The notes: generated by a model from the letters alone, not told the origin. DNA of 32,000 nt from Phycisphaera mikurensis NBRC 102666 (GCF_000284115.1 NC_017080.1:1560001-1592000), one strand, 5' to 3'; counted from the first letter of the stretch, positions 5,424 through 19,136 are shown. Program-made: numbers and translations.

Positions 5424-5498
5424 TGTTCGCAAGCCGTCCGAGCACCGCTTCGCGGGCCACGACGGGCACGCAGGCACGAAGACACGAAGGGGGATCGG

Positions 5499-5897
5499 GT
5501 GCATGAGCTCTCGGTCGCGATCTCCATCGTCGACAGCCTGAAGGACGTGCTGGAGGAAGAGGACGGAGGAAAGGTCTCGTCCGTCTCCGTGGCGGTGGGC
5601 GCGCACGCCGGCGTGGTGATCGAGGCGTTGCGTTACGCGTGGGGGCCCGCCACCTGCGGCACGCCCCTGGAGGGCTCGGTGCTGGACGTCGAAGCGGTGC
5701 CGGCCACCGTCTGGTGCGGCAGGTGTGCGTCGGAGTCCGTCCTCCCCGGGGTCCGCCTCTCCTGTCCCGCGTGCGGTGCCGCCACGCCCGTGCTCCTTTC
5801 CGGCAAAGAGCTCGACCTCCTTTCGTTCGAGCTCGAGCGGGATCTTCCCCCCGCCGAGCCCCCCCTCCGTGCCTTCGTGCCTTCGCGTCCTTCGTGA
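5499..5897 (+). CDS. hypA: HypA-family Ni metallochaperone (GhaA-like accessory protein)
   Basis: The GTG start gives the N-terminal MHE Ni-binding motif (MHELSVAISIVDSL). The zinc site has two CxxC pairs (WCGRCASE ... SCPACGA). A purine-rich RBS (GAAGGGGGA) lies upstream. No hydrogenase genes are in the window. Confidence 0.85.
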   Translation: MHELSVAISIVDSLKDVLEEEDGGKVSSVSVAVGAHAGVVIEALRYAWGPATCGTPLEGSVLDVEAVPATVWCGRCASESVLPGVRLSCPACGAATPVLLSGKELDLLSFELERDLPPAEPPLRAFVPSRPS

Positions 5898-5926: not shown

Positions 5927-6595
5927 ATGGCCGCAAACACCACCCGCCTCGTCGAAGTCCGAACGAAGATCCTCAAGAAGAACGACGAGCACGCGCGGGC
6001 GCTGCGGGCGCGTTTCCAGGAGGCCGGGGTCCGCGTGGTCTCGTGGGTGTCGTCGCCGGGCTCCGGGAAAACCGAGCTGCTCAAGCGGCTGCTGCTGCAC
6101 CTCAAGCAGACGCGGCCGGGGCTGAAGGTCGCCACGCTGGTCGGCGACCTCGCCACCGACAACGACGCCGACCGCCTCGCCGCCGCCGGGTACCCCGTCG
6201 CCCAGATCCTCACCGGCACCATGTGCCACCTCGAGGCCGACATGACCGCGGGGGCCATCGAGAAGGCCGGCTGGGACCTCGAGGAGATCGACCTCCTGCT
6301 TGTCGAGAACGTCGGCAACCTGGTCTGCCCCGCCACCTACGACCTCGGCGAGGCGCTGCGGGTCGTGGCGCTCTCCACGACCGAGGGCGAGGACAAGCCG
6401 CTGAAGTACCCGACCATCTTCAACACCGCCGACCTGGCGGTCGTCACCAAGATGGACCTGGCGGAGGTACTCGGCTTCGACGAAGCCGCCTGCCGCGCGA
6501 ACATCGACGCCGTGCGACCGGGGATGCCGGTTCTCGGCGTCTCGGCGAGGAGCGGCGAAGGCCTCGCTGAGCTGGCCGCGGCGGTCTTGGGCTGA
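5927..6595 (+). CDS. hypB: HypB-family Ni-binding GTPase (GhaB-like accessory protein)
   Basis: ATG 5927. P-loop SSPGSGKTELL, the metal-binding CH motif (GTMCHLEADM), ENVGNLVCP and a TKMDL NKxD-like motif are present. There is no His-rich N-terminus. Confidence 0.85.
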   Translation: MAANTTRLVEVRTKILKKNDEHARALRARFQEAGVRVVSWVSSPGSGKTELLKRLLLHLKQTRPGLKVATLVGDLATDNDADRLAAAGYPVAQILTGTMCHLEADMTAGAIEKAGWDLEEIDLLLVENVGNLVCPATYDLGEALRVVALSTTEGEDKPLKYPTIFNTADLAVVTKMDLAEVLGFDEAACRANIDAVRPGMPVLGVSARSGEGLAELAAAVLG

Positions 6596-6647
6596 ATCCG
6601 CGGACCGCGGTCCTCCGGGGCCGGATCCCGCGACGATCCGCGGATTC
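6594..6647. terminator. Candidate bidirectional terminator hairpin between convergent hypB and the rhodanese gene
   Basis: Perfect 11-bp inverted repeat GAATCCGCGGA (6594-6604) / TCCGCGGATTC (6637-6647). It spans from one stop codon to the other. The loop contains the 12-bp perfect palindrome GGACCGCGGTCC (6602-6613). Confidence 0.35.
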
Positions 6648-7578
6648 AGTCGCTCGGGCCGTGCACGGGCAGGCCGGCCTCGGCCCAGCCCGCGTAGCCG
6701 CCGGTGAGGACGCGGACCGGCGAGAAGCCCAGCGACTCCAGCACCGCCTGCGCCAGCGCGGCGTGCGTGCCGATCGCGTCGTACACGATCAGCGGCCCGC
6801 CGGCGGCCGGGTCGAGGCCGGCCTCCCGCGCCATCCGCTCCCGATCGGGGCCCGGCTTGAGCCGCGGGTCGGAGACGCTCAAGAGGAAGTCCTGCCAGGG
6901 GAGGTTGCGGGCGCCGGGGATGTGGCCGCCGCGCTGGGTGCCGTGCCCCGAGCGTTCGCCCCGGAAGAGGCGTCCGCTGCGGGAATCGACGAGGCGTCCG
7001 AGGGCGGCCGCCTCGGCGGCTTCCTCCCGTGTCGCCTCGACGGGGCGGACGACGCCGACCGGCCAGCTCGTCGGCGTCCGCACCGGCGGCGGATCGGTGG
7101 ACAGCGGGTGGCCGGCCGCCACCCAGCCGCGGGTGTGGCCGTCGAGCAGCCGCGCCCGCACGCCGGCGCGGCGGAGGGCCAGCCGCAGGGGCGCCGGGAA
7201 GACGCCGCCGGCGTCGCCGACGAGCACGACGTCGTCCCCGGGCCGCAGCCCGAGGCGGCCGAACAGCTCGGCGGCTGCCTCGGACCCGACCAGCCCGTTG
7301 GTGCGGCCGGGCCGGTCCACCATCGCCTCGTCGTGCTCGACGAAGAACGCCCCGGGCACGTGCCCGCGCTCGTAGCCGCGGCGGCCGTGCCCGACGTGCA
7401 GCAGCACGAGCGCGGGATCGTCCGCGGCGAGCCGCTCCGCCACCTCCGCGATGGACGCGAAAGCCCCGCCGGAGGCCTCCGCGGCGCGGAGGCCCGGCGG
7501 GGCGGCCGGCGTCGCCTCCGCCCGGGCGATGCCGAGAGCCGGGAGCAGCGCGAGGACGAGAAAGAGCGGTCGGATCAT
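6646..7578 (-). CDS. Secreted tandem rhodanese-homology-domain protein (sulfurtransferase-like, lacks any cysteine)
   Basis: The internal ATG at 7578 gives 310 aa with a signal peptide (MIRPLFLVLALLPALGIARA). GGAG lies ~12 nt upstream. There are two rhodanese-like halves (ERGHVPGAFF; GGHIPGARNLPW). The active-site loop position reads IVYDAIGTHAAL, with Asp where Cys is expected. Confidence 0.75.
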   Translation of the reverse strand: MIRPLFLVLALLPALGIARAEATPAAPPGLRAAEASGGAFASIAEVAERLAADDPALVLLHVGHGRRGYERGHVPGAFFVEHDEAMVDRPGRTNGLVGSEAAAELFGRLGLRPGDDVVLVGDAGGVFPAPLRLALRRAGVRARLLDGHTRGWVAAGHPLSTDPPPVRTPTSWPVGVVRPVEATREEAAEAAALGRLVDSRSGRLFRGERSGHGTQRGGHIPGARNLPWQDFLLSVSDPRLKPGPDRERMAREAGLDPAAGGPLIVYDAIGTHAALAQAVLESLGFSPVRVLTGGYAGWAEAGLPVHGPSD

Positions 7579-9051: not shown

Positions 9052-9861
9052 ATGAAACCTGCTGGTGCCCGACGAGCACGCTTTCAACCCGCCGCGTTCA
9101 CCCTGATCGAGCTGCTGGTGGTGATCTCGATCATCGCGCTGCTGGTGGGGATCCTGCTGCCGGCGCTCGGGAAGGCCCGAGAATCAGCACGCGCCTCGGT
9201 GTGCCAGTCGAACCTGAAGCAGCTGGGCATCGCGGGCCACGCCTACGCGACCGACTTCGACGGCTTCCCGCCGGGCGACGAAGCCCTGGGCGGTGCTTCG
9301 ATCCGCATGGGAGCGGGCGTCGACGGCGGCAACCACCCCAAAGCTTCGCTTCGCAACCCGGGCGTGGAGGAGACCTTCGGCCTCTCCTCCGTCTACGCCC
9401 GCCAGGGCTACATGGACCCTGGCGCAGGGTGGATCTGCCCGTCGCAGTACGCGGTGGTCGGCGGCAGCGGGTACGACTTCGCGATGGCCGAGTGGGGGAA
9501 CACGTACCTCGTGCAGACCGTCGACAAGCGGATCGAGCAGATGATGCTGGAGACCGACGCCAGCAAGACGCCGGTGCCCTGGGCGAAAGACAATTGGCTC
9601 CGGTACCCCGGCCAAGCGGGCAACTACGTCCCGGGGCGGAACAGCGATGCCGACAAGGGTGGCAGCCTCCCGTGGAGCGTCCGCGGTGCGGCCATCCCCC
9701 ACCGCGGAGCCGGGGGCATCAAGACCGAGGGGCTGAGCACGTTCACCGCGTGGCAGGACGCTTTCGCGCCGGTGATGGGCACGTTGAACGTCGACAAGAT
9801 CGCCGGCCAGAACAAGCTTTTCTACGACGGACACGTCGAGGCGGTGTATCAGGATGGCTGA
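9052..9861 (+). CDS. Prepilin-type N-terminal cleavage/methylation-domain protein, DUF1559 family
   Basis: ATG 9052. The leader is followed by [29 protein letters not shown] and then [17 protein letters not shown]. The C-terminal motif is [10 protein letters not shown]. This architecture is typical of planctomycetal DUF1559 pseudopilin-like proteins. Confidence 0.85.
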
Positions 9862-11158: not shown

Positions 11159-13558
11159 TCAGCCGGTCAGCCGGACGTCGAAGTTCCTGCCGAGCCCGCC
11201 GCCGTCCGCGTGGTGCAGGGTGAAGCGGAGCGTGCCGCCGGCGGGCAGGTCGGCGGGTCGGAGTTCGGCGGCGTGAACGAGGGGGAGCGGGGCGGTGAGC
11301 GGGGTGTCGGTGGAGGTGTCCCACCCGTCGACGGTCCAGCGGAGGGTGCCGGGGCGGTCGGAGACGATACGCAGCGGCTTGGCGGCGTCGGCCTCGGCGA
11401 TGGGGTGGGCGGGGCACCAGAAGGTGGCGTCGAAGCCGCGCCGGCCGTCCCGGGCGTACCGGTCGTGGCAGGGGCCGATGCGGTCGAAGGGTTCGCCGTC
11501 GCAGAGGCTCCGGGCGAGGTTCAGGTAGGTCGCGTGCGACCAGCACAGCGGCATCGCCGACCCGGCGGGGCCGCCGAACTCCAGATCGTGGTCGGGGTCG
11601 TCGGGGAAGCGCCAGAGCTGCTCGGGCAGCATCCCGCCGGGGTTGGCGAACGCGGCGAGCGCGTCGAGGTAGGGCCCGGCGGGCTCGCCGGCGGCGAGGG
11701 CGTAGAGGCCGCGCTCGCCGGTGAGCAGCGGCCAGCAGCCGCCCACGCCCTCGGTGTCGAAGGCGGAGCCGTCCCGCTTCTGCCCGTAGCCGTCGTGGTT
11801 GTAGCGGAGGTAGCCGGGGCCGCCGGGCAGGTCGTGCTTGAGCACGGCGTCGGCCACGCGCACGCTGGCGGCGACGGTGGCGTCGTCGGCGGGGCGGACG
11901 CCGTAGCGGACGAGCTGGAGGAAGCCCAGATCGACGACGTCGCGCGCCGGGTGGGTCCCCCCGCCGTTCTTCAGCCGCACCTCGGCGGTATCCACGGATC
12001 CGGGCACGGGCGTGTCGCCCGCCTCGGCGGGGTTGATGCGGACGAAGTGCCGCGGCTCGCCATCGACGAGCGTGCCGCGGGTGGTGACGGTCCAGGCCTC
12101 GACGTGCGCGGCGAGCCAATCGGCGTAATCGTGCACGAAGGCCGCGGCTGCGGCCTCGCCGGCCTCCGCGAAGCCCTCGGCCGCGACGCAGAGGGCGGCG
12201 ACGCAGGTCGCCAGCGTGGAGGGCGAGTAGCCGCTGTTCTCCTCCCAGCGTTCCTGCGGCGTCACCGGGCCGCTGTGGATGAGCTTCGCCGCGGCCCGCC
12301 GGACGACCGCGGGCGTGGCCAGGCCCTCGCAGGCGCCGGCGCGGCGGAGACGCCAAGCCAGCAGCGCGGGCGCGGCGACCTCGTCGAGCTGCAGGCCCGG
12401 CCAGAAGGGCTCGCCGTCGAGCCAGGCGTTCTGCGGGATGCCGCCGTCGGCTTGCTGCAGGCAGGCGAGGTAGGTCATCGCCCGCCGCGGCGTCGCGGTC
12501 TCGCCGGCGGCGAGCAGGGCGGTGGCGGCGTGCAGGAGGTCGCGCGGCCAGACGAGGTGGTAGCCGCCGGGGTCGGCGTCGCTCTGGTGCGCGCCCCAGG
12601 GGATCGACAGCGAGGCGGTCATCGCGCCCTGGTAGGTCTTGTCCTCGTGAGCGAGCAGCACGCAGCGGGACAGGCGGGCGAGGCCGCCGCCGTCGCCGCA
12701 CTGCGCCTCCAGCCGGTTCAGCGTGCCGTCGCAGCCGTCGTCGAGGCGCTTCCACTGGCGCAGGAAGCTCTCCCGCTTCTCGTCGAAGCGGTCGCCGAGG
12801 GCCTGGAGCAGCGCGCAGGCGGAGCTGGTGGCGGAGTCGCCGAAGCCCAGCCCGAGCACGGCGGTGCGGCCGGGCGCCGAGAGGTCCAGCTCGCCGGTGA
12901 GGGCGACGGTGCCGTCGCGGGCCTCCGTGAAGCTCCACGCGAGGTCGAAGCCGTCCTGGAGGTCCTGGTAGCCGTCGCTGGAGCCGCTGTACCCCACCGA
13001 GCGGCGGAGGAAGCCGGGGCGGGCTCCCATCGCCAGGTGCGTGCCGTCGCGCCAGGCACGCAGCAGCGGCTCGCCGGCGAGGTCGCAGGCGGCGGCGTGG
13101 TTGCCGCGGCCCGAGCCCCCGGCGTGGGGGGCGAGCAGGGCGAAGACGCGCAGCTTCTCCGCATAGGTGGAATCGAGGACCTCCAGCCGGATCCGCTGGA
13201 GCAGCACCGGCTGGTGCGGGTCGCTCAGCACGTCCTTCACCACGCGGTAGCGGCCGCCGGGATCGGTGTTGGTGAGGCGGTAGGCGAGGGTGTCTTCGTC
13301 GGGCCGCTCGACGGCGTGCGTCAGGTCGCGGCGCTCCTCGTGGAGGAACGTCTCGCCGTCGGTGATGAGCAGCTGGAGGTCGCGGGTGTTCGGCTGATCG
13401 GCGGTCGGGTGGTAGACCTCGTTGACGACGCCGTGGCTGAGCGTGAACCAGAGGCGTGAGGCGGTGTGGTAGGCGGTGCCCACGCCGACCTTCGCGCTCG
13501 ACGTCCACCGGGGTTCGATGCCCGGGGCGCCGAAGGCTTCGCTCGGAGGGTCGGGCAT
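11159..13558 (-). CDS. Glycoside hydrolase family 15 glucoamylase (glucan 1,4-alpha-glucosidase/glucodextranase-like)
   Basis: 799-aa ORF. The N-terminal beta-sandwich domain has a bacterial-glucoamylase pattern (GAPGIEPRWTSSAKVGVGTAY...LWFTLSHGVVNEVYHP). The catalytic (alpha/alpha)6 region shows GGYHLVWPRDLLHAATALLAAGE and GMLPEQLW. Confidence 0.85.
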   Translation of the reverse strand: MPDPPSEAFGAPGIEPRWTSSAKVGVGTAYHTASRLWFTLSHGVVNEVYHPTADQPNTRDLQLLITDGETFLHEERRDLTHAVERPDEDTLAYRLTNTDPGGRYRVVKDVLSDPHQPVLLQRIRLEVLDSTYAEKLRVFALLAPHAGGSGRGNHAAACDLAGEPLLRAWRDGTHLAMGARPGFLRRSVGYSGSSDGYQDLQDGFDLAWSFTEARDGTVALTGELDLSAPGRTAVLGLGFGDSATSSACALLQALGDRFDEKRESFLRQWKRLDDGCDGTLNRLEAQCGDGGGLARLSRCVLLAHEDKTYQGAMTASLSIPWGAHQSDADPGGYHLVWPRDLLHAATALLAAGETATPRRAMTYLACLQQADGGIPQNAWLDGEPFWPGLQLDEVAAPALLAWRLRRAGACEGLATPAVVRRAAAKLIHSGPVTPQERWEENSGYSPSTLATCVAALCVAAEGFAEAGEAAAAAFVHDYADWLAAHVEAWTVTTRGTLVDGEPRHFVRINPAEAGDTPVPGSVDTAEVRLKNGGGTHPARDVVDLGFLQLVRYGVRPADDATVAASVRVADAVLKHDLPGGPGYLRYNHDGYGQKRDGSAFDTEGVGGCWPLLTGERGLYALAAGEPAGPYLDALAAFANPGGMLPEQLWRFPDDPDHDLEFGGPAGSAMPLCWSHATYLNLARSLCDGEPFDRIGPCHDRYARDGRRGFDATFWCPAHPIAEADAAKPLRIVSDRPGTLRWTVDGWDTSTDTPLTAPLPLVHAAELRPADLPAGGTLRFTLHHADGGGLGRNFDVRLTG

Positions 13559-13634: not shown

Positions 13635-14306
13635 ATGCCCATCCCACCCCGCTCCCGGACGCTCCCTCGGCGGGGCTTCACGCTCCTCGAGCTGCTCGTG
13701 GTGATCTCGGTCGTCGCGCTCCTGATCGGGATCCTGCTGCCGGTGCTGGCGGCGGCGCGGACCACGGCCCGCCGGGTCACCTGCAGCGGCAACCTGCGGC
13801 AGATGGGCGTCGCGATGGAGAGCTACACCCAGCTGTTCGACGGGTACTACCCGCTGGCGCGCCCCGTGGCGAAGCCCTTCGCGCCTTACGCGTACCACCC
13901 GGCGGACGCCGGGCCCGCCTTCGCCGGCCGGGAGCTGCCGGAGCTGGCCGCGACGATGGCGTCGGTGGGGCTGGAGCCTCCCCGGGCGGACGACCCCGAC
14001 AGCGTCTACCACTGCCCCGACGACGAGACCGTCTTCCCCGTGTCGGCCAACAGCTACGCCTACTCGGGCTTCCTCCGCGGCGAGACGCTGGAGGCGATGC
14101 TGGCGCGCGGCTTCGTGTCGCGGCGGAACATGGACGCCAGCGACGTCTTCGTGATGATGGACTTCGACGGCGAGGAGGGCGGCAGCGACTTCGTCCTGCT
14201 GCCCGCGCCCGACGGCCCGGGCGGCTCGATGGTGGTGCCCAAGCGCCACTTCAAGCGGAACATCCTCTTCGCCGACGGGCACGTGGGCTTCGACCTCGAC
14301 TCCTAG
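13635..14306 (+). CDS. Prepilin-type N-terminal cleavage/methylation-domain protein, DUF1559 family (short)
   Basis: ATG 13635 with GGAGG 5-6 nt upstream. GFTLLELLVVISVVALLIGILLPVLAAAR is followed by TCSGNLRQMGVAMESY. The C-terminal motif is ILFADGHVGF. Confidence 0.8.
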   Translation: MPIPPRSRTLPRRGFTLLELLVVISVVALLIGILLPVLAAARTTARRVTCSGNLRQMGVAMESYTQLFDGYYPLARPVAKPFAPYAYHPADAGPAFAGRELPELAATMASVGLEPPRADDPDSVYHCPDDETVFPVSANSYAYSGFLRGETLEAMLARGFVSRRNMDASDVFVMMDFDGEEGGSDFVLLPAPDGPGGSMVVPKRHFKRNILFADGHVGFDLDS

Positions 14307-15613: not shown

Positions 15614-16810
15614 ATGATCCTTTACGTCCTGAGGGGTGCGTTTCTGATCCTGGTGGCGGCGGTGATCACGCTGTACGCCAACAGCGAGTTCCAGCAGCTC
15701 GCCGGCCTGACCTTCATCGGGGTCTCCTCCATCATCGCGGGGGTCGTCGCCGTCGCCGCGGGGGTGATCGCGCTGGACGTGTGGATCCGCGAGAAGCGGC
15801 TGTCCGCGATCTCCGGCGTCTTCCTCGGGCTGCTCGCGGGCCTCCTCGCGGCGTACGCGCTGTCGTTCGTGGTCGACCTCATCGGCGTCTACGGCGCGCC
15901 GGAATCCGGCCCGCGCCGCGAAGCCTTCTTCGACCTTCTGCAAGGGCTGAAGGTGGTGATCGGCCTGGTCACCTGCTACATCGCGATGTCGCTGGTGCTG
16001 CAGACCAAGGACGACTTCCGCTTCGTGATCCCGTACGTGGAGTTCGCGAAGGAGATCCGCGGGAGCCGCCCGACGCTGCTCGACACGTCGGTCATCGTCG
16101 ACGGCCGCGTGCTCGACATCGCCGACACGAAGGTGATGCAGGGGGCGATCGTGGTGCCGCGGTTCGTGCTCGATGAGCTGCAGAAGATCTCCGACGCCTC
16201 GGACAAGCTCAAGCGGGCCCGCGGACGCCGCGGGCTCGACCGGCTCCAGAAGCTGCGCGACCACCCCGACCTCGAGGTCCGCATCGACGACACGCCCGAC
16301 CGCGAGGCCGCGGACGCCGGGGTCGACGCGCGGCTGATCGCGGCGGCCCGGCGGATGCGCGGCCGGCTGATGACCAACGACTTCAACCTGGCGAAGGTGG
16401 CGAAGCTGCGGGGCGTCGACGTCATCAACCTCAACGACCTCGCTCGGGCCCTCCGCCCGGTGCTTCTGCCCGGGGAGCAGGTCCAGGTGCGGCCGGTGAA
16501 GCTCGGCGAGGGGGCCGGCCAGGGCGTGGGCTACCTCGAGGACGGCACGATGGTGGTGGTCGACGGGGGCCGGGACCGCCTCCACGAGCTCGTCGAGGCG
16601 ACGGTGACCTCGGCGCTGCAGACCTCCGCCGGCCGCATGATCTTCGCGACGCTCCACGAGGGCCCCGGCGTGGGCGATTCGATGGCGGGGCTGCCGCGGC
16701 CGGGCACCAAGAAGAAGCCGCCGCCGGACCCGGGGGACTCGACGCCGGGGGCGCAGCCGCCCCGCGGGCGGGACGGGTCGCGGCCGAGCCGACGCAACCC
16801 CCGACGCTGA
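15614..16810 (+). CDS. Membrane-associated PIN and TRAM domain protein (YacL-like)
   Basis: ATG 15614. The N-terminus has ~4 hydrophobic helices. The PIN domain reads LLDTSVIVDGRVLDIADT...VVPRFVLDELQ...LMTNDFNLAKVAKLRGVDVINLNDLA. The TRAM-like C-terminal part reads GEQVQVRPVKLGEGAGQGVGYLEDGTMVVVDGG. Confidence 0.8.
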   Translation: MILYVLRGAFLILVAAVITLYANSEFQQLAGLTFIGVSSIIAGVVAVAAGVIALDVWIREKRLSAISGVFLGLLAGLLAAYALSFVVDLIGVYGAPESGPRREAFFDLLQGLKVVIGLVTCYIAMSLVLQTKDDFRFVIPYVEFAKEIRGSRPTLLDTSVIVDGRVLDIADTKVMQGAIVVPRFVLDELQKISDASDKLKRARGRRGLDRLQKLRDHPDLEVRIDDTPDREAADAGVDARLIAAARRMRGRLMTNDFNLAKVAKLRGVDVINLNDLARALRPVLLPGEQVQVRPVKLGEGAGQGVGYLEDGTMVVVDGGRDRLHELVEATVTSALQTSAGRMIFATLHEGPGVGDSMAGLPRPGTKKKPPPDPGDSTPGAQPPRGRDGSRPSRRNPRR

Positions 16811-16848
16811 CGCCCCGGCGGCGGGCGCAGCCCGTGCGCGACCCGCTT

Positions 16849-17757
16849 CCCGGGTGCCACGCCCCCCAGAATCCAACCTTCGATAGGTCCCTGGGGGAGC
16901 GGTTCCCGGGTGCCACGCCCCTTGGGGGGTGGCCGTGTCGCGAGACCCTCCCGCGCTCGCCACCCCGCAAGCGGCGTGGCACCCGGGCATCGGCCGGCGT
17001 TGGGGGATGTGTCGAGGGTGGTGCCCTCCGGACCGGGTGCCACGCCCCTTGGGGGGTGGCCGTGTCGCGAGACCCTCCCCGCGCTCGCCACCCCGCAAGC
17101 GGCGTGGCACCCGGGCATCGGCCGGCGTCGGAAGATGTGTCGAGGGTGGCGCCTTCCGGACCGGGTGCCACGCCCCTTGGGGGGTGGCCGTGTCGCGAGA
17201 CCCTCCCCGCGCTCGCCACCCCGCAAGCGGCGTGGCACCCGGGCATCGGCCGGCCTTGGGAGATGTGTCGAAGGTGGTGCCCTCCGAACCGGGTGCCACG
17301 CCCCTTGGGGGGTGGCCGTGTCGCAAGACCCTCCCGCGCTCGCCACCCCGCAAGCGGCGTGGCACCCGGGCATCGGCCGGCGTCGGAAGATGTGTCGAGG
17401 GTGGCGCCTTCCGGACCGGGTGCCACGCCCCTTGGGGGGTGGCCGTGTCGCGAGACCCTCCCCGCGCTCGCCACCCCGCAAGCGGCGTGGCACCCGGGCC
17501 TCGGCCGGCCTTGGGAGATGTGTTGAAGGTGGTGCCCTCCGGATCCGGGTGTCACGCCCCTTGGGGGGTGGCCGTGTCGCGAGACCCTCCCGCGCTCGCC
17601 ACCCCGCAAGCGGCGTGGCACCCGGGCATCGGCCGGCTTTGGGAGATGTGTCGAGGGTGGTGCCTTCCGGACCGGGTGCCACGCCCCTTGGGGGGTGGCC
17701 GTGTCGCAAGACCCTCCCGCGCTCGCCACCCCGCAAGCGGCGTGGCACCCGGGCACC
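16849..17757. repeat. Tandem array of about 7 copies of a 127-129-bp unit, each containing an ~83-nt imperfect hairpin (REP/BIME-like or structured-RNA array)
   Basis: The GGGTGCCACGCC arm recurs at 16908, 17035, 17163, 17291, 17418, 17547 (variant GGGTGTCACGCC) and 17674, with a partial arm at 16852. Each unit reads CCGGGTGCCACGCC-C-CTTG-G-GGGGTGGC...GCCACCCC-G-CAAG-C-GGCGTGGCACCCGG plus a ~45-nt linker. The period is not a multiple of 3, and no stop codon occurs in any of the six frames. Confidence 0.9.
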
Positions 17758-17804: not shown

Positions 17805-19136
17805 TCAGAGCAGGCGGACCAGCACCCCGTCCGCCACGAAGCGGCCGGCGTGCGTCAGCCGGAGCCGGCCGGCGGCCGCCTCGAGGAGGCCGAGCCGCCG
17901 GCAGTCCTGGAGGTGGTCGCGGCGCGGGTCGCCGGCGGGGAGTTCGGCTTCAAGGGATGCCGCGTTGACGCCCTCGGCGAGGCGGAGGCCGAGCATCAGG
18001 CGCTCGCCGAGCCGCCGGGCGGCGGGAAGCCGCTCGACGTCCACCCGCGGCGGCGGGCCGCCGCCGAGCAACGCGGCCTCGTAGGCGGGGAGATTGGGGC
18101 GGTTGCGGAAGCGGAGGCCGTCGAGGTGGCTGGCGGCGGCCGGTCCCAGGCCGAGCCAGCTCGCGTTGCGCCAGTAGTGCAGGTTGTGCTTGCACCGCAG
18201 GTCCCGCGCGCCGCGGCGCGCCCAGTTCGACAGCTCGTACTGCTCATAGCCGGCGGCGTCCAGCCGCTCCATCACCCGCGCGTACATCGCCCGCTGCAGG
18301 TCTTCCTCCACCTCGGCAACCTTCCCCACGCGGAGCCGGGCGGCGAGCGGGGTCTGCGGCTCGAAGGTGAGGCCGTAGGCGGAGAGGTGCTCGGGCTCGA
18401 GGCCGAGCAGGCGGTCGAGGTCGGCGTCGAGCATCGCGAGCGTCTGCCCGGGGATGGCCCAGATGAGGTCGAGCGAGACGTTGTCGAAGCCGGCGGCACG
18501 GGCGAGTTCGACGGCCCGGCCGACGCTCTCGGGGGCGTGCCAGCGTTCGAGGGCGGCGAGGCTGCCGCGGTCGAAGCTCTGGGCGCCGATCGACAGGCGG
18601 TCGACGCCGCCTCCCCGCAGCGCGGCGAGGACCGCGGGCGTGACGGTTTCGGGATTGGCCTCGGCGGTGAACTCGACGCACGCATCGAGGACGCCGCGAC
18701 GCCGGAGGTCGCCCAAGAGCGCCCGCCAATGCTCGGCGGCGAGCAGCGTCGGCGTGCCGCCGCCGGCGAAGGCCGTCCGCGGGCGGAGCGGGACACCGGC
18801 ACCGGCCCAGGCTCCCGCGGCGGCGTCGAGCTCGGCCCGGAGGGCGTCGGTGAAACGCCGCTGGGCCGACGCGAGCTCGCTCGGGGGCGCCACGACGCTG
18901 AAGAAGTCGCAGTAGTGGCACTTGTGGAAGCAGAAGGGCAGGTGCAGGTAGAGCCCGTCGACCGGCGTCGGCCGGTCGCCGTTGGGGATGAACGGCGCTT
19001 CGTCGGTCTCTTGCCGCTGCGGGGCCGCAGCGGTAGGCTCCGCCTCCGCGGGGCCGGCCGCCCGTGGCCCCGCCGCCGCTGCGCGGTGGCGGCTCCCGCC
19101 GGCCCCGCCCGGTGTCTCCGCCTGGAGTTCTCGCAT
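17805..19136 (-). CDS. hemW: Radical SAM haem chaperone HemW (oxygen-independent coproporphyrinogen-III oxidase-like)
   Basis: Radical-SAM CxxxCxxC motif (LHLPFCFHKCHYCDF). Family motifs GGGTPT, EANPETV, RLSIGAQSF and the C-terminal HemN_C-like region are present. The only canonical in-frame start is ATG 19136, which gives a 58-aa N-terminal extension, so the start is uncertain. Confidence 0.8.
   Translation of the reverse strand: MRELQAETPGGAGGSRHRAAAAGPRAAGPAEAEPTAAAPQRQETDEAPFIPNGDRPTPVDGLYLHLPFCFHKCHYCDFFSVVAPPSELASAQRRFTDALRAELDAAAGAWAGAGVPLRPRTAFAGGGTPTLLAAEHWRALLGDLRRRGVLDACVEFTAEANPETVTPAVLAALRGGGVDRLSIGAQSFDRGSLAALERWHAPESVGRAVELARAAGFDNVSLDLIWAIPGQTLAMLDADLDRLLGLEPEHLSAYGLTFEPQTPLAARLRVGKVAEVEEDLQRAMYARVMERLDAAGYEQYELSNWARRGARDLRCKHNLHYWRNASWLGLGPAAASHLDGLRFRNRPNLPAYEAALLGGGPPPRVDVERLPAARRLGERLMLGLRLAEGVNAASLEAELPAGDPRRDHLQDCRRLGLLEAAAGRLRLTHAGRFVADGVLVRLL

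What the first reader, a model, noticed from the sequence alone, without database searches (positions are those of the whole stretch)
16849..17757. 0.9-kb tandem array of 127-129-bp hairpin units between convergent genes
Seven unit starts lie at 16908, 17035, 17163, 17291, 17418, 17547 and 17674, with a degenerate, lower-GC partial unit at 16849-16907.

Structure of each unit:
- A perfect 14-bp outer stem: CCGGGTGCCACGCC / GGCGTGGCACCCGG.
- A 4-bp helix: CTTG / CAAG.
- An 8-bp helix: GGGGTGGC / GCCACCCC.
- An apical CGCG / CGCG stem.
- Together these give about 30 paired positions in ~83 nt, followed by a ~45-nt linker.
- The two outer arms alternate in orientation along the array, as REP sequences do in BIMEs.

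Why it is not coding and not CRISPR:
- The period is not a multiple of three.
- The linkers are conserved copies rather than unique spacers.
- No stop codon occurs in any of the six frames, which explains the six long spurious ORFs in the track.

The array fills almost the whole gap between the 3' ends of the PIN/TRAM gene and hemW. No transposase or RAYT gene is in the window. Candidate roles, all inferences, are a stacked bidirectional terminator or insulator, an array of small structured RNAs, or a REP/BIME-like recombination or protein-binding platform.
Basis: partly seen in the sequence, partly recalled or inferred. Interest (0 to 1): 0.7.

Follow-up and report, generated by a model that had tools for sequence, protein, structure and literature searches.

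The report
Tandem REPIN-like hairpin repeat array
Between two converging genes of the planctomycete Phycisphaera mikurensis lie seven head-to-tail copies of a 128-bp unit built around an 81-nt hairpin; it is best read as a species-specific REP/REPIN-type palindromic repeat cluster, a known kind of bacterial intergenic repeat and not a new system.

Summary
The array is real: 16906-17755, period 127-129 bp, 6.7 copies, 94% identity. Each unit is an 81-82-nt hairpin plus a 46-47-nt linker. The genome is Phycisphaera mikurensis.

Each half of the hairpin is itself a 22-nt imperfect palindrome. The unit is therefore an inverted doublet of REP-like palindromes (REPIN architecture), reiterated in tandem together with a linker.

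Close relatives (84-87% identical PIN/TRAM protein) carry canonical GTAG/GTGG-footed REP doublets, some in tandem arrays of period 99-142 bp. A more distant relative has only 78 bp at the same gene junction, so the array is a lineage-specific gain.

A diverged copy, with at least two units of about 147 bp, underlies ORF PSMK_12760 about 68 genes away. The family is therefore not confined to one locus.

Two assemblies of the species differ only by one 255-bp two-unit block (7 versus 5 units).

There is no Rfam match, no coding signal, no CRISPR features, no canonical REP foot, and no Y1 transposase in 42 kb.

Function, probably a stacked RNA/DNA hairpin barrier between the two genes, is inferred only by analogy with REP/BIME elements. 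Interest is low to moderate.

The parts
15614..16810 (+). PIN/TRAM (YacL-like) gene whose 3' end faces the array
   Evidence: Its 398-aa product is an exact match to BAM03503.1 / WP_014436722.1 of Phycisphaera mikurensis.
16811..16905 (.). Non-repeated left flank with its own modest hairpins
   Evidence: RNA fold -53.2 kcal/mol, z = -3.05. No significant similarity to the linker or the unit.
16850..16865 (+). Solo 16-nt copy of the left arm (CCGGGTGCCACGCCCC), i.e. an extra half-REP
   Evidence: Exact match. It is followed by unrelated sequence.
16906..17755 (.). Whole tandem array: 7 hairpins and 6 linkers
   Evidence: TRF period 128, 6.7 copies, 94% matches. Alignment A1.
16906..16986 (.). 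Hairpin 1 (81 nt), an inverted doublet of 22-nt palindromes at 16912-16933 (+) and 16959-16980 (-)
17033..17114 (.). Hairpin 2 (82 nt); palindromes at 17039-17060 and 17087-17108
17161..17242 (.). Hairpin 3 (82 nt); palindromes at 17167-17188 and 17215-17236
17289..17369 (.). Hairpin 4 (81 nt, apical G>A variant); palindromes at 17295-17316 and 17342-17363
17416..17497 (.). Hairpin 5 (82 nt); palindromes at 17422-17443 and 17470-17491
17545..17625 (.). Hairpin 6 (81 nt, left arm C>T at 17552); palindromes at 17551-17572 and 17598-17619
17672..17752 (.). Hairpin 7 (81 nt), the last one; the array ends here without a linker
16987..17671 (.). Span holding the six 46-47-nt linkers (16987-17032, 17115-17160, 17243-17288, 17370-17415, 17498-17544, 17626-17671)
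   Evidence: 11 of 47 linker columns vary, against 3 of 82 hairpin columns (Fisher p = 9e-4). Four of the seven hairpins are directly preceded by CGGA.
17161..17415 (.). 255-bp two-unit block (units 3+4) absent from draft assembly GCA_014207395.1; the register is ambiguous, with the start anywhere in 17078-17245
   Evidence: Unit 2 is 98.4% identical to unit 4, and unit 3 is 96.9% identical to unit 5.
17805..19136 (-). hemW-like radical-SAM gene (Radical_SAM + HemN_C) whose 3' end faces the array
   Evidence: Gene call in L002 at 11937-13268 with Pfam hits, mapped to the window by the offset found.

Best explanation
The array is a species-specific REP/REPIN-type palindromic repeat cluster in Phycisphaera mikurensis.

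Building block (shown):
- Two 22-nt imperfect palindromes, GCCACGCC[C/G]CTTG[G/C]GGGGTGGC, lie in inverted orientation 25-26 nt apart.
- A further inverted pair, CCGGGT/ACCCGG, flanks them on the outside.
- Together they fold into an 81-82-nt hairpin on either strand.

Origin (inferred):
- The doublet arrived at, or arose in, a convergent gene junction that was ancestrally short.
- The doublet plus a 46-nt adjoining segment was then amplified head to tail by unequal recombination or replication slippage between hairpins.
- The most recent step duplicated a two-unit (255-bp) block. The same block differs between two assemblies, so the array may still be unstable, or it is hard to assemble.

Function (inferred by analogy with REP/BIME elements, not shown):
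- Read-through transcripts from the PIN/TRAM gene and from hemW each run into a stack of very stable hairpins, about -68 kcal/mol each.
- These would block 3'-5' exonucleases and impede transcription from crossing into the opposing gene.
- At the DNA level the palindromes could extrude as cruciforms and serve as substrates for a single-strand HuH (Y1) enzyme, if the genome encodes one.
For: Anatomy:
- 14 exact or near-exact copies of the 22-nt palindrome alternate in orientation.
- The two mismatches of the long hairpin (C.C and G.G) are exactly positions 9 and 14 of the small palindrome. These form C-G in the left copy and G-C in the right copy. The small hairpin is thus kept by a double change that costs the long hairpin two pairs (read). 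Small hairpins alone fold at -18.5 and -15.1 kcal/mol.
- The doublet is conserved about 6-fold better than the linker: 3 of 82 versus 11 of 47 variable columns, p = 9e-4.

Lineage context:
- Relatives with 84-87% identical PIN/TRAM protein carry canonical GTAG/GTGG-footed REP doublets in most large intergenic gaps. L004 has four copies of one family in 21 kb.
- Some of these are reiterated in tandem with the same layout: L007 1136-1561, period 142 x 3.0, unit fold z = -5.75; L005 12551-13124, period 99 x 5.8.
- At the same PIN/TRAM -> <- hemW junction, L013 has a 78-bp unstructured gap. L007 has a different palindrome of about 400 nt (z = -13). P. mikurensis has 995 bp.

Dispersal:
- ORF PSMK_12760 (BAM03435.1), 68 protein accessions from the PIN/TRAM gene, is a translated diverged copy covering hairpin + linker + hairpin. 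It has two repeats 49 aa (147 nt) apart. Scores: E = 3.6e-5 against 1.84 billion proteins, and 80% identity over the 20 aa spanning the right palindrome and linker start.

Literature:
- REP dimers are reiterated in tandem with flanking DNA, and REPs occur in Planctomycetes (PMC3733652).
Against: - No canonical 5' foot (GT[AG]G or CGTC) adjoins the palindromes. The outer flank is CCGGGT.
- Only two loci are known. There is no other copy in 42 kb of P. mikurensis DNA.
- No other exact-arm doublet was found in the 185,579-species genome collection, nothing in the plasmid collection, and only one unrelated hairpin in JGI metagenomes.
- No Y1/RAYT gene was seen in the sequence available.
- The start of the linker is also conserved at the second locus. 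That is not expected if the linker were merely locus-specific flanking DNA.
- No transcript, termination or binding data exist. There is no U-tract.
Confidence: 0.6

Rival explanations
1. Immobile minisatellite (VNTR). A native hairpin at the convergent junction plus adjoining DNA was amplified locally by slippage or unequal crossing-over, and one block was later copied to a second locus. There is no transposase and no selected function.
For: - Two-unit higher-order structure and a 255-bp copy-number difference between assemblies.
- No canonical REP foot.
- No other copy in 42 kb.
- The linker is partly conserved at the second locus, as expected for block duplication.
- A single hairpin also sits at another convergent junction in this genome, cobW/rhodanese, z = -5.04.
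Against: - The hairpin is not shared with the orthologous junction of relatives.
- The doublet-of-palindromes architecture and the compensated 9/14 pair point to REP-type elements.
- Relatives are full of genuine REP doublet arrays of the same layout.
- The hairpin is much better conserved than the linker.
Confidence: 0.22
2. An array of small structured RNA genes, or a processed multi-hairpin precursor. Each 128-nt unit would yield a hairpin RNA, possibly linked to the adjacent PIN/TRAM ribonuclease-like protein.
For: - Very stable conserved hairpins on both strands.
- Hairpin plus the first 12+ nt of the linker are conserved at a second locus.
- The array lies directly downstream of a PIN/TRAM gene, and three close relatives also have large structured elements there.
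Against: - No Rfam family, even at E <= 10.
- No sigma-70-like promoter and no terminator tail.
- The linker, where a promoter would lie, is the most variable part.
- Variants give no strand preference: one keeps G-U pairing only on the + strand, another only on the - strand.
- Relatives carry palindromic elements in nearly every large gap, not only after PIN/TRAM.
- L013, Algisphaera (L011) and L012 have a short gap or different neighbours after PIN/TRAM.
Confidence: 0.07
3. Assembly artefact: the repeat, or its length, was created by mis-assembly.
For: - 7 units in the window against 5 in the draft assembly.
- Short-read Logan contigs stop inside the first unit.
Against: - The repeat is present with identical unit sequences in two independent assemblies, and at the end of a third short-read contig.
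- A diverged copy exists elsewhere in the chromosome.
- Only the copy number is in doubt.
Confidence: 0.02
4. Protein-coding repeat or CRISPR array.
For: Long stop-poor ORFs in all six frames, and regular spacing of palindromic repeats.
Against: - The period of 127-129 bp is not a multiple of 3.
- No gene was called there and no protein homologue was found, apart from a spurious ORF over the second copy.
- The 'spacers' are copies of one another.
- Repeats of 81 nt are far outside the CRISPR range.
- No cas gene appears among the gene calls.
Confidence: 0.01

Closest known systems
Ordered (tandem) REPIN clusters of Pseudomonas fluorescens SBW25 (Bertels & Rainey 2011, PMC3116915)
   Same: - Inverted doublet of short palindromes forming a long hairpin.
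- Tandem reiteration of nearly identical doublets together with adjoining sequence.
- An extra lone REP at one end.
- Extragenic position, and arrays present at more than one locus.
   Different: - No GT[AG]G-type foot.
- Only two loci are known here, against hundreds of copies in SBW25.
- No RAYT identified.
- 7 doublets, against at most 4 reported there.
- The linker is partly shared between loci.
GTAG/CGTC-tagged REP superfamilies, including tandemly reiterated dimers (Di Nocera et al. 2013, PMC3733652), and E. coli BIMEs
   Same: - Short stem-loop repeats in head-to-head dimers 20-100 bp apart.
- Clusters made of dimers reiterated with flanking DNA.
- Reported in the PVC superphylum.
- Canonical GTAG/GTGG members occur in the closest relatives of this genome.
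   Different: The P. mikurensis palindrome has neither a GTAG nor a CGTC unpaired tag. Gyrase, IHF or Pol I binding is unknown.
Atypical hairpins with a 5' CnGA foot flanking class 3 TnpA-Y1 genes, mainly in Planctomycetes (Quentin et al. 2018, PMC6006769)
   Same: - Same phylum, and a non-GT[AG]G hairpin repeat.
- Four of seven hairpins here are directly preceded by CGGA.
   Different: - No class 3 gene was seen in the 42 kb available.
- The published structures could not be compared (figure and table not held).
- The foot match could be chance (roughly 2% per position in this base composition).
Mycobacterial MIRU-type intergenic minisatellites (from general knowledge)
   Same: Intergenic tandem repeats of about 50-130 bp in a high-GC genome, with variable copy number.
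   Different: MIRUs are not built around long palindromes. Several of them sit between co-directional genes and carry small ORFs.
CRISPR arrays
   Same: Regularly spaced palindromic repeats.
   Different: Repeats of 81 nt instead of 24-48 nt, 'spacers' that are homologous copies, and no cas genes.

Membership tests
REP / REPIN (BIME-type) elements | Short (about 20-60 bp) imperfect palindrome as the basic repeat | tested here: met
   The 22-nt palindrome GCCACGCCSCTTGSGGGGTGGC occurs 14 times, against 0.03 expected by chance. It folds on its own.
REP / REPIN (BIME-type) elements | Two REPs in inverted orientation forming a long hairpin (REPIN) | tested here: met
   Copies alternate +/- with 25-26 nt between them. 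The 81-82-nt hairpin folds at about -68 kcal/mol.
REP / REPIN (BIME-type) elements | Extragenic location | tested here: met
   It lies between the stop codons of the PIN/TRAM gene (16810) and hemW (17805).
REP / REPIN (BIME-type) elements | Many dispersed copies in the same genome | tested here: inconclusive
   - A second, diverged tandem copy lies under PSMK_12760, about 68 genes away.
- No further copy in 42 kb.
- The exact-arm scan of the genome collection found none, but it would miss diverged copies.
- The whole chromosome could not be read.
REP / REPIN (BIME-type) elements | Conserved unpaired 5' foot, GT[AG]G (or CGTC) | tested here: not met
   The flank is CCGGGT on the outer side, and CGTGTC / GAGCGC on the inner sides. 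Canonical feet are present in relatives but not here.
REP / REPIN (BIME-type) elements | Cognate single-copy RAYT (TnpA-REP, PF01797) in the genome, usually flanked by the REPs | not testable with these tools
   None among the gene calls and ORFs covering the window plus 10 kb.
REP / REPIN (BIME-type) elements | Ordered cluster: tandem reiteration of the doublet with adjoining sequence | tested here: met
   The same layout occurs in relatives L007 and L005.
Class 3 TnpA-Y1-associated hairpins (Planctomycetes) | 5' tetranucleotide foot CnGA at the hairpin base, and a class 3 HuH-Y1 gene nearby | tested here: inconclusive
   CGGA directly precedes 4 of 7 hairpins, with CGAA, GGAT and GTTC at the others. 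No such gene lies in the available DNA.
CRISPR | Unique spacers between 24-48-bp repeats, with cas genes | tested here: not met
   Linkers are homologous to each other. No cas gene appears among the gene calls.
Any Rfam RNA family | Covariance-model match at or near the gathering score | tested here: not met
   No hit at gathering threshold. The best sub-threshold hits are generic miRNA-hairpin models at 22-24 bits, against cut-offs of 51-84.
Intrinsic (Rho-independent) terminator | GC-rich hairpin followed by a U-tract | tested here: not met
   No terminator-like site in 16.8-17.8 kb. No T run follows the hairpin on either strand.

The most novel reading that the evidence does not exclude
The conserved unit may not be selfish repeat DNA. 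It may be a multi-copy structured-RNA module, consisting of the hairpin plus the first dozen linker bases, which are also kept at the second locus. Read-through of the PIN/TRAM gene would transcribe it, and it would be cut into unit-length hairpin RNAs. That would make it a Cas-less, spacer-less RNA array tied to a PIN/TRAM ribonuclease-like protein in Phycisphaerae.
Probability: 0.05. Interest if true: 0.7.

Novelty: new member of a known kind. Interest (0 to 1): 0.25.

Why it matters
- It documents a REPIN-style tandem cluster in Phycisphaera mikurensis whose palindrome lacks the canonical GT[AG]G foot, while sister lineages carry canonical GTAG/GTGG REP doublets. This is a useful contrast for asking how REP families and their HuH-Y1 enzymes turn over in Planctomycetota.
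- It flags a locus whose copy number differs between two assemblies of the species. That makes it a possible VNTR marker and a warning for assemblers.
- It explains six spurious long ORFs, and at least one spurious annotated protein (PSMK_12760).
- It does not open a new biological question on present evidence.

Tried and rejected
- **Rfam.** Gathering threshold on the window and on four related loci, and E <= 10 on the array. Only generic miRNA-hairpin noise appeared.
- **tRNA/tmRNA scan.** None found.
- **Genome-collection scan** for both exact arms with a 40-70-nt gap. The only hit was L001, a low-GC MAG with the same 15-nt arms but a different interior. I judged it probably a chance match among the very many palindromes in 596 Gb. 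This used the only genome scan. In hindsight the 22-nt palindrome would have been the better pattern.
- **Metagenome scan** with the 22-nt palindrome. One unrelated small hairpin, L008.
- **Six-frame concatenated translation** against the 5.8-billion-protein index. No hit. The exhaustive phmmer search later found PSMK_12760.
- **Fetching the PSMK_12760 locus.** The gene is not on record in the contig index, so its DNA could not be read.
- **Plasmid collection**, distant mode. No match.
- **Left 'partial unit'.** Alignment to the linker or unit scored no better than shuffles.
- **Linker covariation.** Apparent covariation follows the two-unit duplication history, so it is not evidence of structure.
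- **Strand of a putative RNA.** The two informative variants point in opposite directions.
- **Promoter/terminator scan.** Nothing in the array.
- **GC-skew profile.** Nothing notable at the array.
- **Right-edge ORF look-up** to extend the sequence. Not on record.

Full report
**Observation**

The repeat is real and far beyond chance.
- Tandem Repeats Finder reports 16906-17755, period 128, 6.7 copies, 94% matches. Period-255 and period-383 solutions score equally well, which reveals a higher-order pattern.
- The 14-nt arm CCGGGTGCCACGCC occurs 15 times within 2 mismatches, against 2.76 expected.
- One unit folds to -84.6 kcal/mol on the + strand (z = -4.85) and -82.7 on the - strand (z = -5.33). 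The whole array folded as ssDNA gives z = -20.

- Unit starts are 16906, 17033, 17161, 17289, 17416, 17545 and 17672, each 2 nt lower than stated.
- Hairpins are 81-82 nt and linkers 46-47 nt.
- The 'degenerate partial unit' is only a solo 16-nt copy of the left arm at 16850-16865, followed by 40 nt unrelated to the linker.
- There are two stop codons, at 17524 (+) and 17554 (-). Each is caused by a unit-specific C>T change.

**Source and flanks**

- The PIN/TRAM product (15614-16810) is identical to BAM03503.1 / WP_014436722.1 of Phycisphaera mikurensis. It is carried on a 3,803,225-bp contig and on draft contig JACHEL010000003.1.
- hemW (Radical_SAM + HemN_C) lies at 17805-19136 on the - strand.
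- The window is 75% G+C and the array 76%.
- Other convergent gene pairs in this region are 17-115 bp apart. The 995-bp gap here is therefore an outlier.

**Assembly question**

- The draft assembly is identical to the window over 11.5 kb on the left and 9.3 kb on the right. It has 5 units and lacks one 255-bp block, equivalent to units 3+4. The junction falls inside a 167-nt stretch shared by the units.
- Unit 2 is 98.4% identical to unit 4, and unit 3 is 96.9% identical to unit 5. The array therefore contains a two-unit higher-order repeat, which is what an assembler could collapse or unequal recombination could delete.
- Short-read Logan contigs end 25 nt into unit 1.
- The repeat exists. 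Only its copy number (7 or 5) is unsettled.

**Anatomy**

Reading the hairpin closely shows that each half is itself a 22-nt imperfect palindrome.
- The left copy is GCCACGCC-C-CTTG-G-GGGGTGGC.
- The right copy, read on the other strand, is GCCACGCC-G-CTTG-C-GGGGTGGC.
- There are 14 copies in strictly alternating orientation.
- The only two mismatches of the long hairpin (C.C and G.G) are positions 9 and 14 of the small palindrome. These pair as C-G in one copy and G-C in the other.
- The small hairpin is thus preserved by a double change that costs the long hairpin two pairs. This is a single event shared by all units, so it is suggestive rather than statistical.

The unit is therefore an inverted doublet of REP-like palindromes with a 25-26-nt spacer and an additional outer CCGGGT/ACCCGG pair, followed by a linker. 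Among the copies, 3 of 82 hairpin columns vary against 11 of 47 linker columns (Fisher p = 9e-4). Either constraint or preferential homogenisation acts on the doublet.

**What it is not**

- Rfam finds nothing at gathering thresholds, and only generic miRNA-hairpin models at 22-24 bits when relaxed.
- There is no sigma-70-like promoter and no hairpin-plus-T-tract terminator in the array.
- The period is not a multiple of three. No gene is called there, and a six-frame translated query had no hit.
- The linkers are copies of each other, so it is not CRISPR.
- No cas or transposase gene appears in the gene calls and ORF scans covering the window and 10 kb to its left.

**Comparative evidence**

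Homologues of the PIN/TRAM protein led to related loci.
- L013 (68% identity) conserves the junction PIN/TRAM -> <- hemW -> FHA. Its gap is only 78 bp with no unusual structure, z = -0.19.
- L007, from the closest relative (87%), has a 483-bp gap at the same junction. It is filled by one unrelated palindrome of about 400 nt, z = -13.4.
- L004 and L005 (84-85%) have different downstream neighbours but again carry large palindromes after the gene.

These relatives are littered with palindromic elements in most large intergenic gaps, including canonical REPs with a GTAG or GTGG foot arranged as inverted doublets.
- One family, GTAGGGCAGGTCTTCGACCTGCC, occurs at four sites in the 21 kb of L004.
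- Some doublets are reiterated in tandem with the same layout as the P. mikurensis array. L007 1136-1561 has period 142 x 3.0 at 93%, and its unit folds as one long hairpin (z = -5.75). L005 12551-13124 has period 99 x 5.8 at 91% and lies between convergent genes.

The P. mikurensis array is thus the local version of a structure common in this lineage. It was gained at a junction that was ancestrally short.

**Is it a dispersed family?**

- There is no other copy within 42 kb of P. mikurensis DNA (window plus L009).
- A scan of one genome per species for both exact arms found only an unrelated low-GC MAG hairpin.
- The 22-nt palindrome is absent from JGI metagenomes except for one unrelated small hairpin. 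The plasmid collection has nothing.
- An exhaustive phmmer search with the + strand translation of the array found one protein, P0121 (E = 3.6e-5). It is the 97-aa 'hypothetical protein PSMK_12760' (BAM03435.1) of P. mikurensis, 68 protein accessions away from the PIN/TRAM gene.
- P0121 is not encoded in the window. It contains the motif HPASGVASGHRPILDEV(A/S)RV twice, 49 aa (147 nt) apart. This motif is the translation of the right palindrome plus the first part of the linker (80% identity over 20 aa).
- P0121 aligns collinearly with hairpin-linker-hairpin of the array, with indels.

So a second, diverged, tandem copy exists elsewhere on the chromosome. Its arms differ from the exact pattern I scanned for, which explains the negative scan. 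I could not retrieve its DNA. The family therefore has at least two loci. Its true size is unknown.

**Mechanism**

- Shown: the doublet-of-palindromes architecture, tandem reiteration with a two-unit higher-order repeat, lineage-specific gain at a convergent junction, a second locus, and stronger conservation of the doublet than of the linker.
- Inferred, origin: amplification by unequal recombination or slippage between hairpins. The array begins and ends with a hairpin, giving 7 hairpins and 6 linkers.
- Inferred, function: by analogy with REP/BIME elements, stacked hairpins at the 3' ends of both convergent transcripts would stabilise the 3' ends and impede read-through. As ssDNA they would be potential substrates for a HuH-Y1 enzyme.
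- Unknown: whether such an enzyme exists in this genome.
- A lead, not a test: class 3 TnpA-Y1 genes, found mainly in Planctomycetes, are flanked by atypical hairpins with a 5' CnGA foot (PMC6006769). Four of the seven hairpins here are directly preceded by CGGA.

**Comparison with known elements**

- The closest description in the literature is the 'ordered REPIN cluster' of P. fluorescens SBW25. [quoted passage not shown] - The P. mikurensis element meets the architectural criteria. It fails the canonical-foot criterion and is unproven for high copy number and a cognate RAYT.
- I therefore file it as working like a REPIN cluster and as a probable, non-canonical member of that kind, not as a GTAG/CGTC REP.

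**Verdict**

This is a real, well-defined, ordinary kind of feature: a new member of a known kind. Interest is 0.25. The most novel reading not excluded is a spacer-less structured-RNA array linked to the PIN/TRAM gene, which I put at about 5%.

Noticed in passing
window 5458-5493 and 5861-5896: A 36-nt inverted repeat (83% complementary) built of CACGAAG-like heptads brackets the whole hypA ORF. The 5' arm covers the likely ribosome-binding site (GAAGGGGG) and the 3' arm lies in the last codons. A similar heptad-armed inverted repeat occurs in relative L005 at 164-422. It could pair the 5' UTR with the 3' end of the hypA mRNA.
   Followed up: no
L004 (354-589, 2229-2627, 9118-9804, 11382-11614, 15116-15521, 19462-20266); L005 (164-422, 5313-5535, 11221-11587, 15302-15478): Relatives carry composite long palindromes in nearly every large intergenic gap. 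Their outer arms are 7-nt tandem repeats (GGGGGTA, GCGTCTA, GGATGnn). These are nested around GCACGACAACGCGG arms and a GTAG-REP doublet core.
   Followed up: partly
L001 2832-2929 (MAG contig CBDVBS010000503.1, upstream of a SecD-like gene): A low-GC genome has a hairpin with the same 15-nt arms (CCGGGTGCCACGCCC) but a different interior: two inner hairpins with TCTT/AAGA loops. Neighbouring hairpins share CGTCTTCG loops. It is probably a chance match among many palindromes, but this is not resolved.
   Followed up: partly
window 6590-6652: A single 15-bp-stem hairpin (z = -5.04) sits exactly between the stop codons of the convergent cobW-like and rhodanese genes. Its core AATCCGCGGACCGCGG recurs in relative L005 (8688-8745, 13992-14059). 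It is a possible lineage-wide terminator-type palindrome without a U-tract.
   Followed up: partly
P. mikurensis chromosome, ORF PSMK_12760 (BAM03435.1), outside the window: This annotated 97-aa hypothetical protein is almost certainly a spurious ORF read across a diverged tandem copy of the same repeat (two units, 147-nt spacing).
   Followed up: partly
L007 7185-7213 and L006 11217-11245: Three perfect copies of the 10-mer GAAGGGCCGC lie directly after the PIN/TRAM stop codon in the closest relative, just before its 400-nt palindrome.
   Followed up: no
window 9097-9179 and 13677-13759: An 83-nt direct repeat (82% identity) is simply the shared prepilin-type N-terminal (N_methyl / SBP_bac_10) coding motif of two paralogous genes, not a mobile repeat.
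   Followed up: partly
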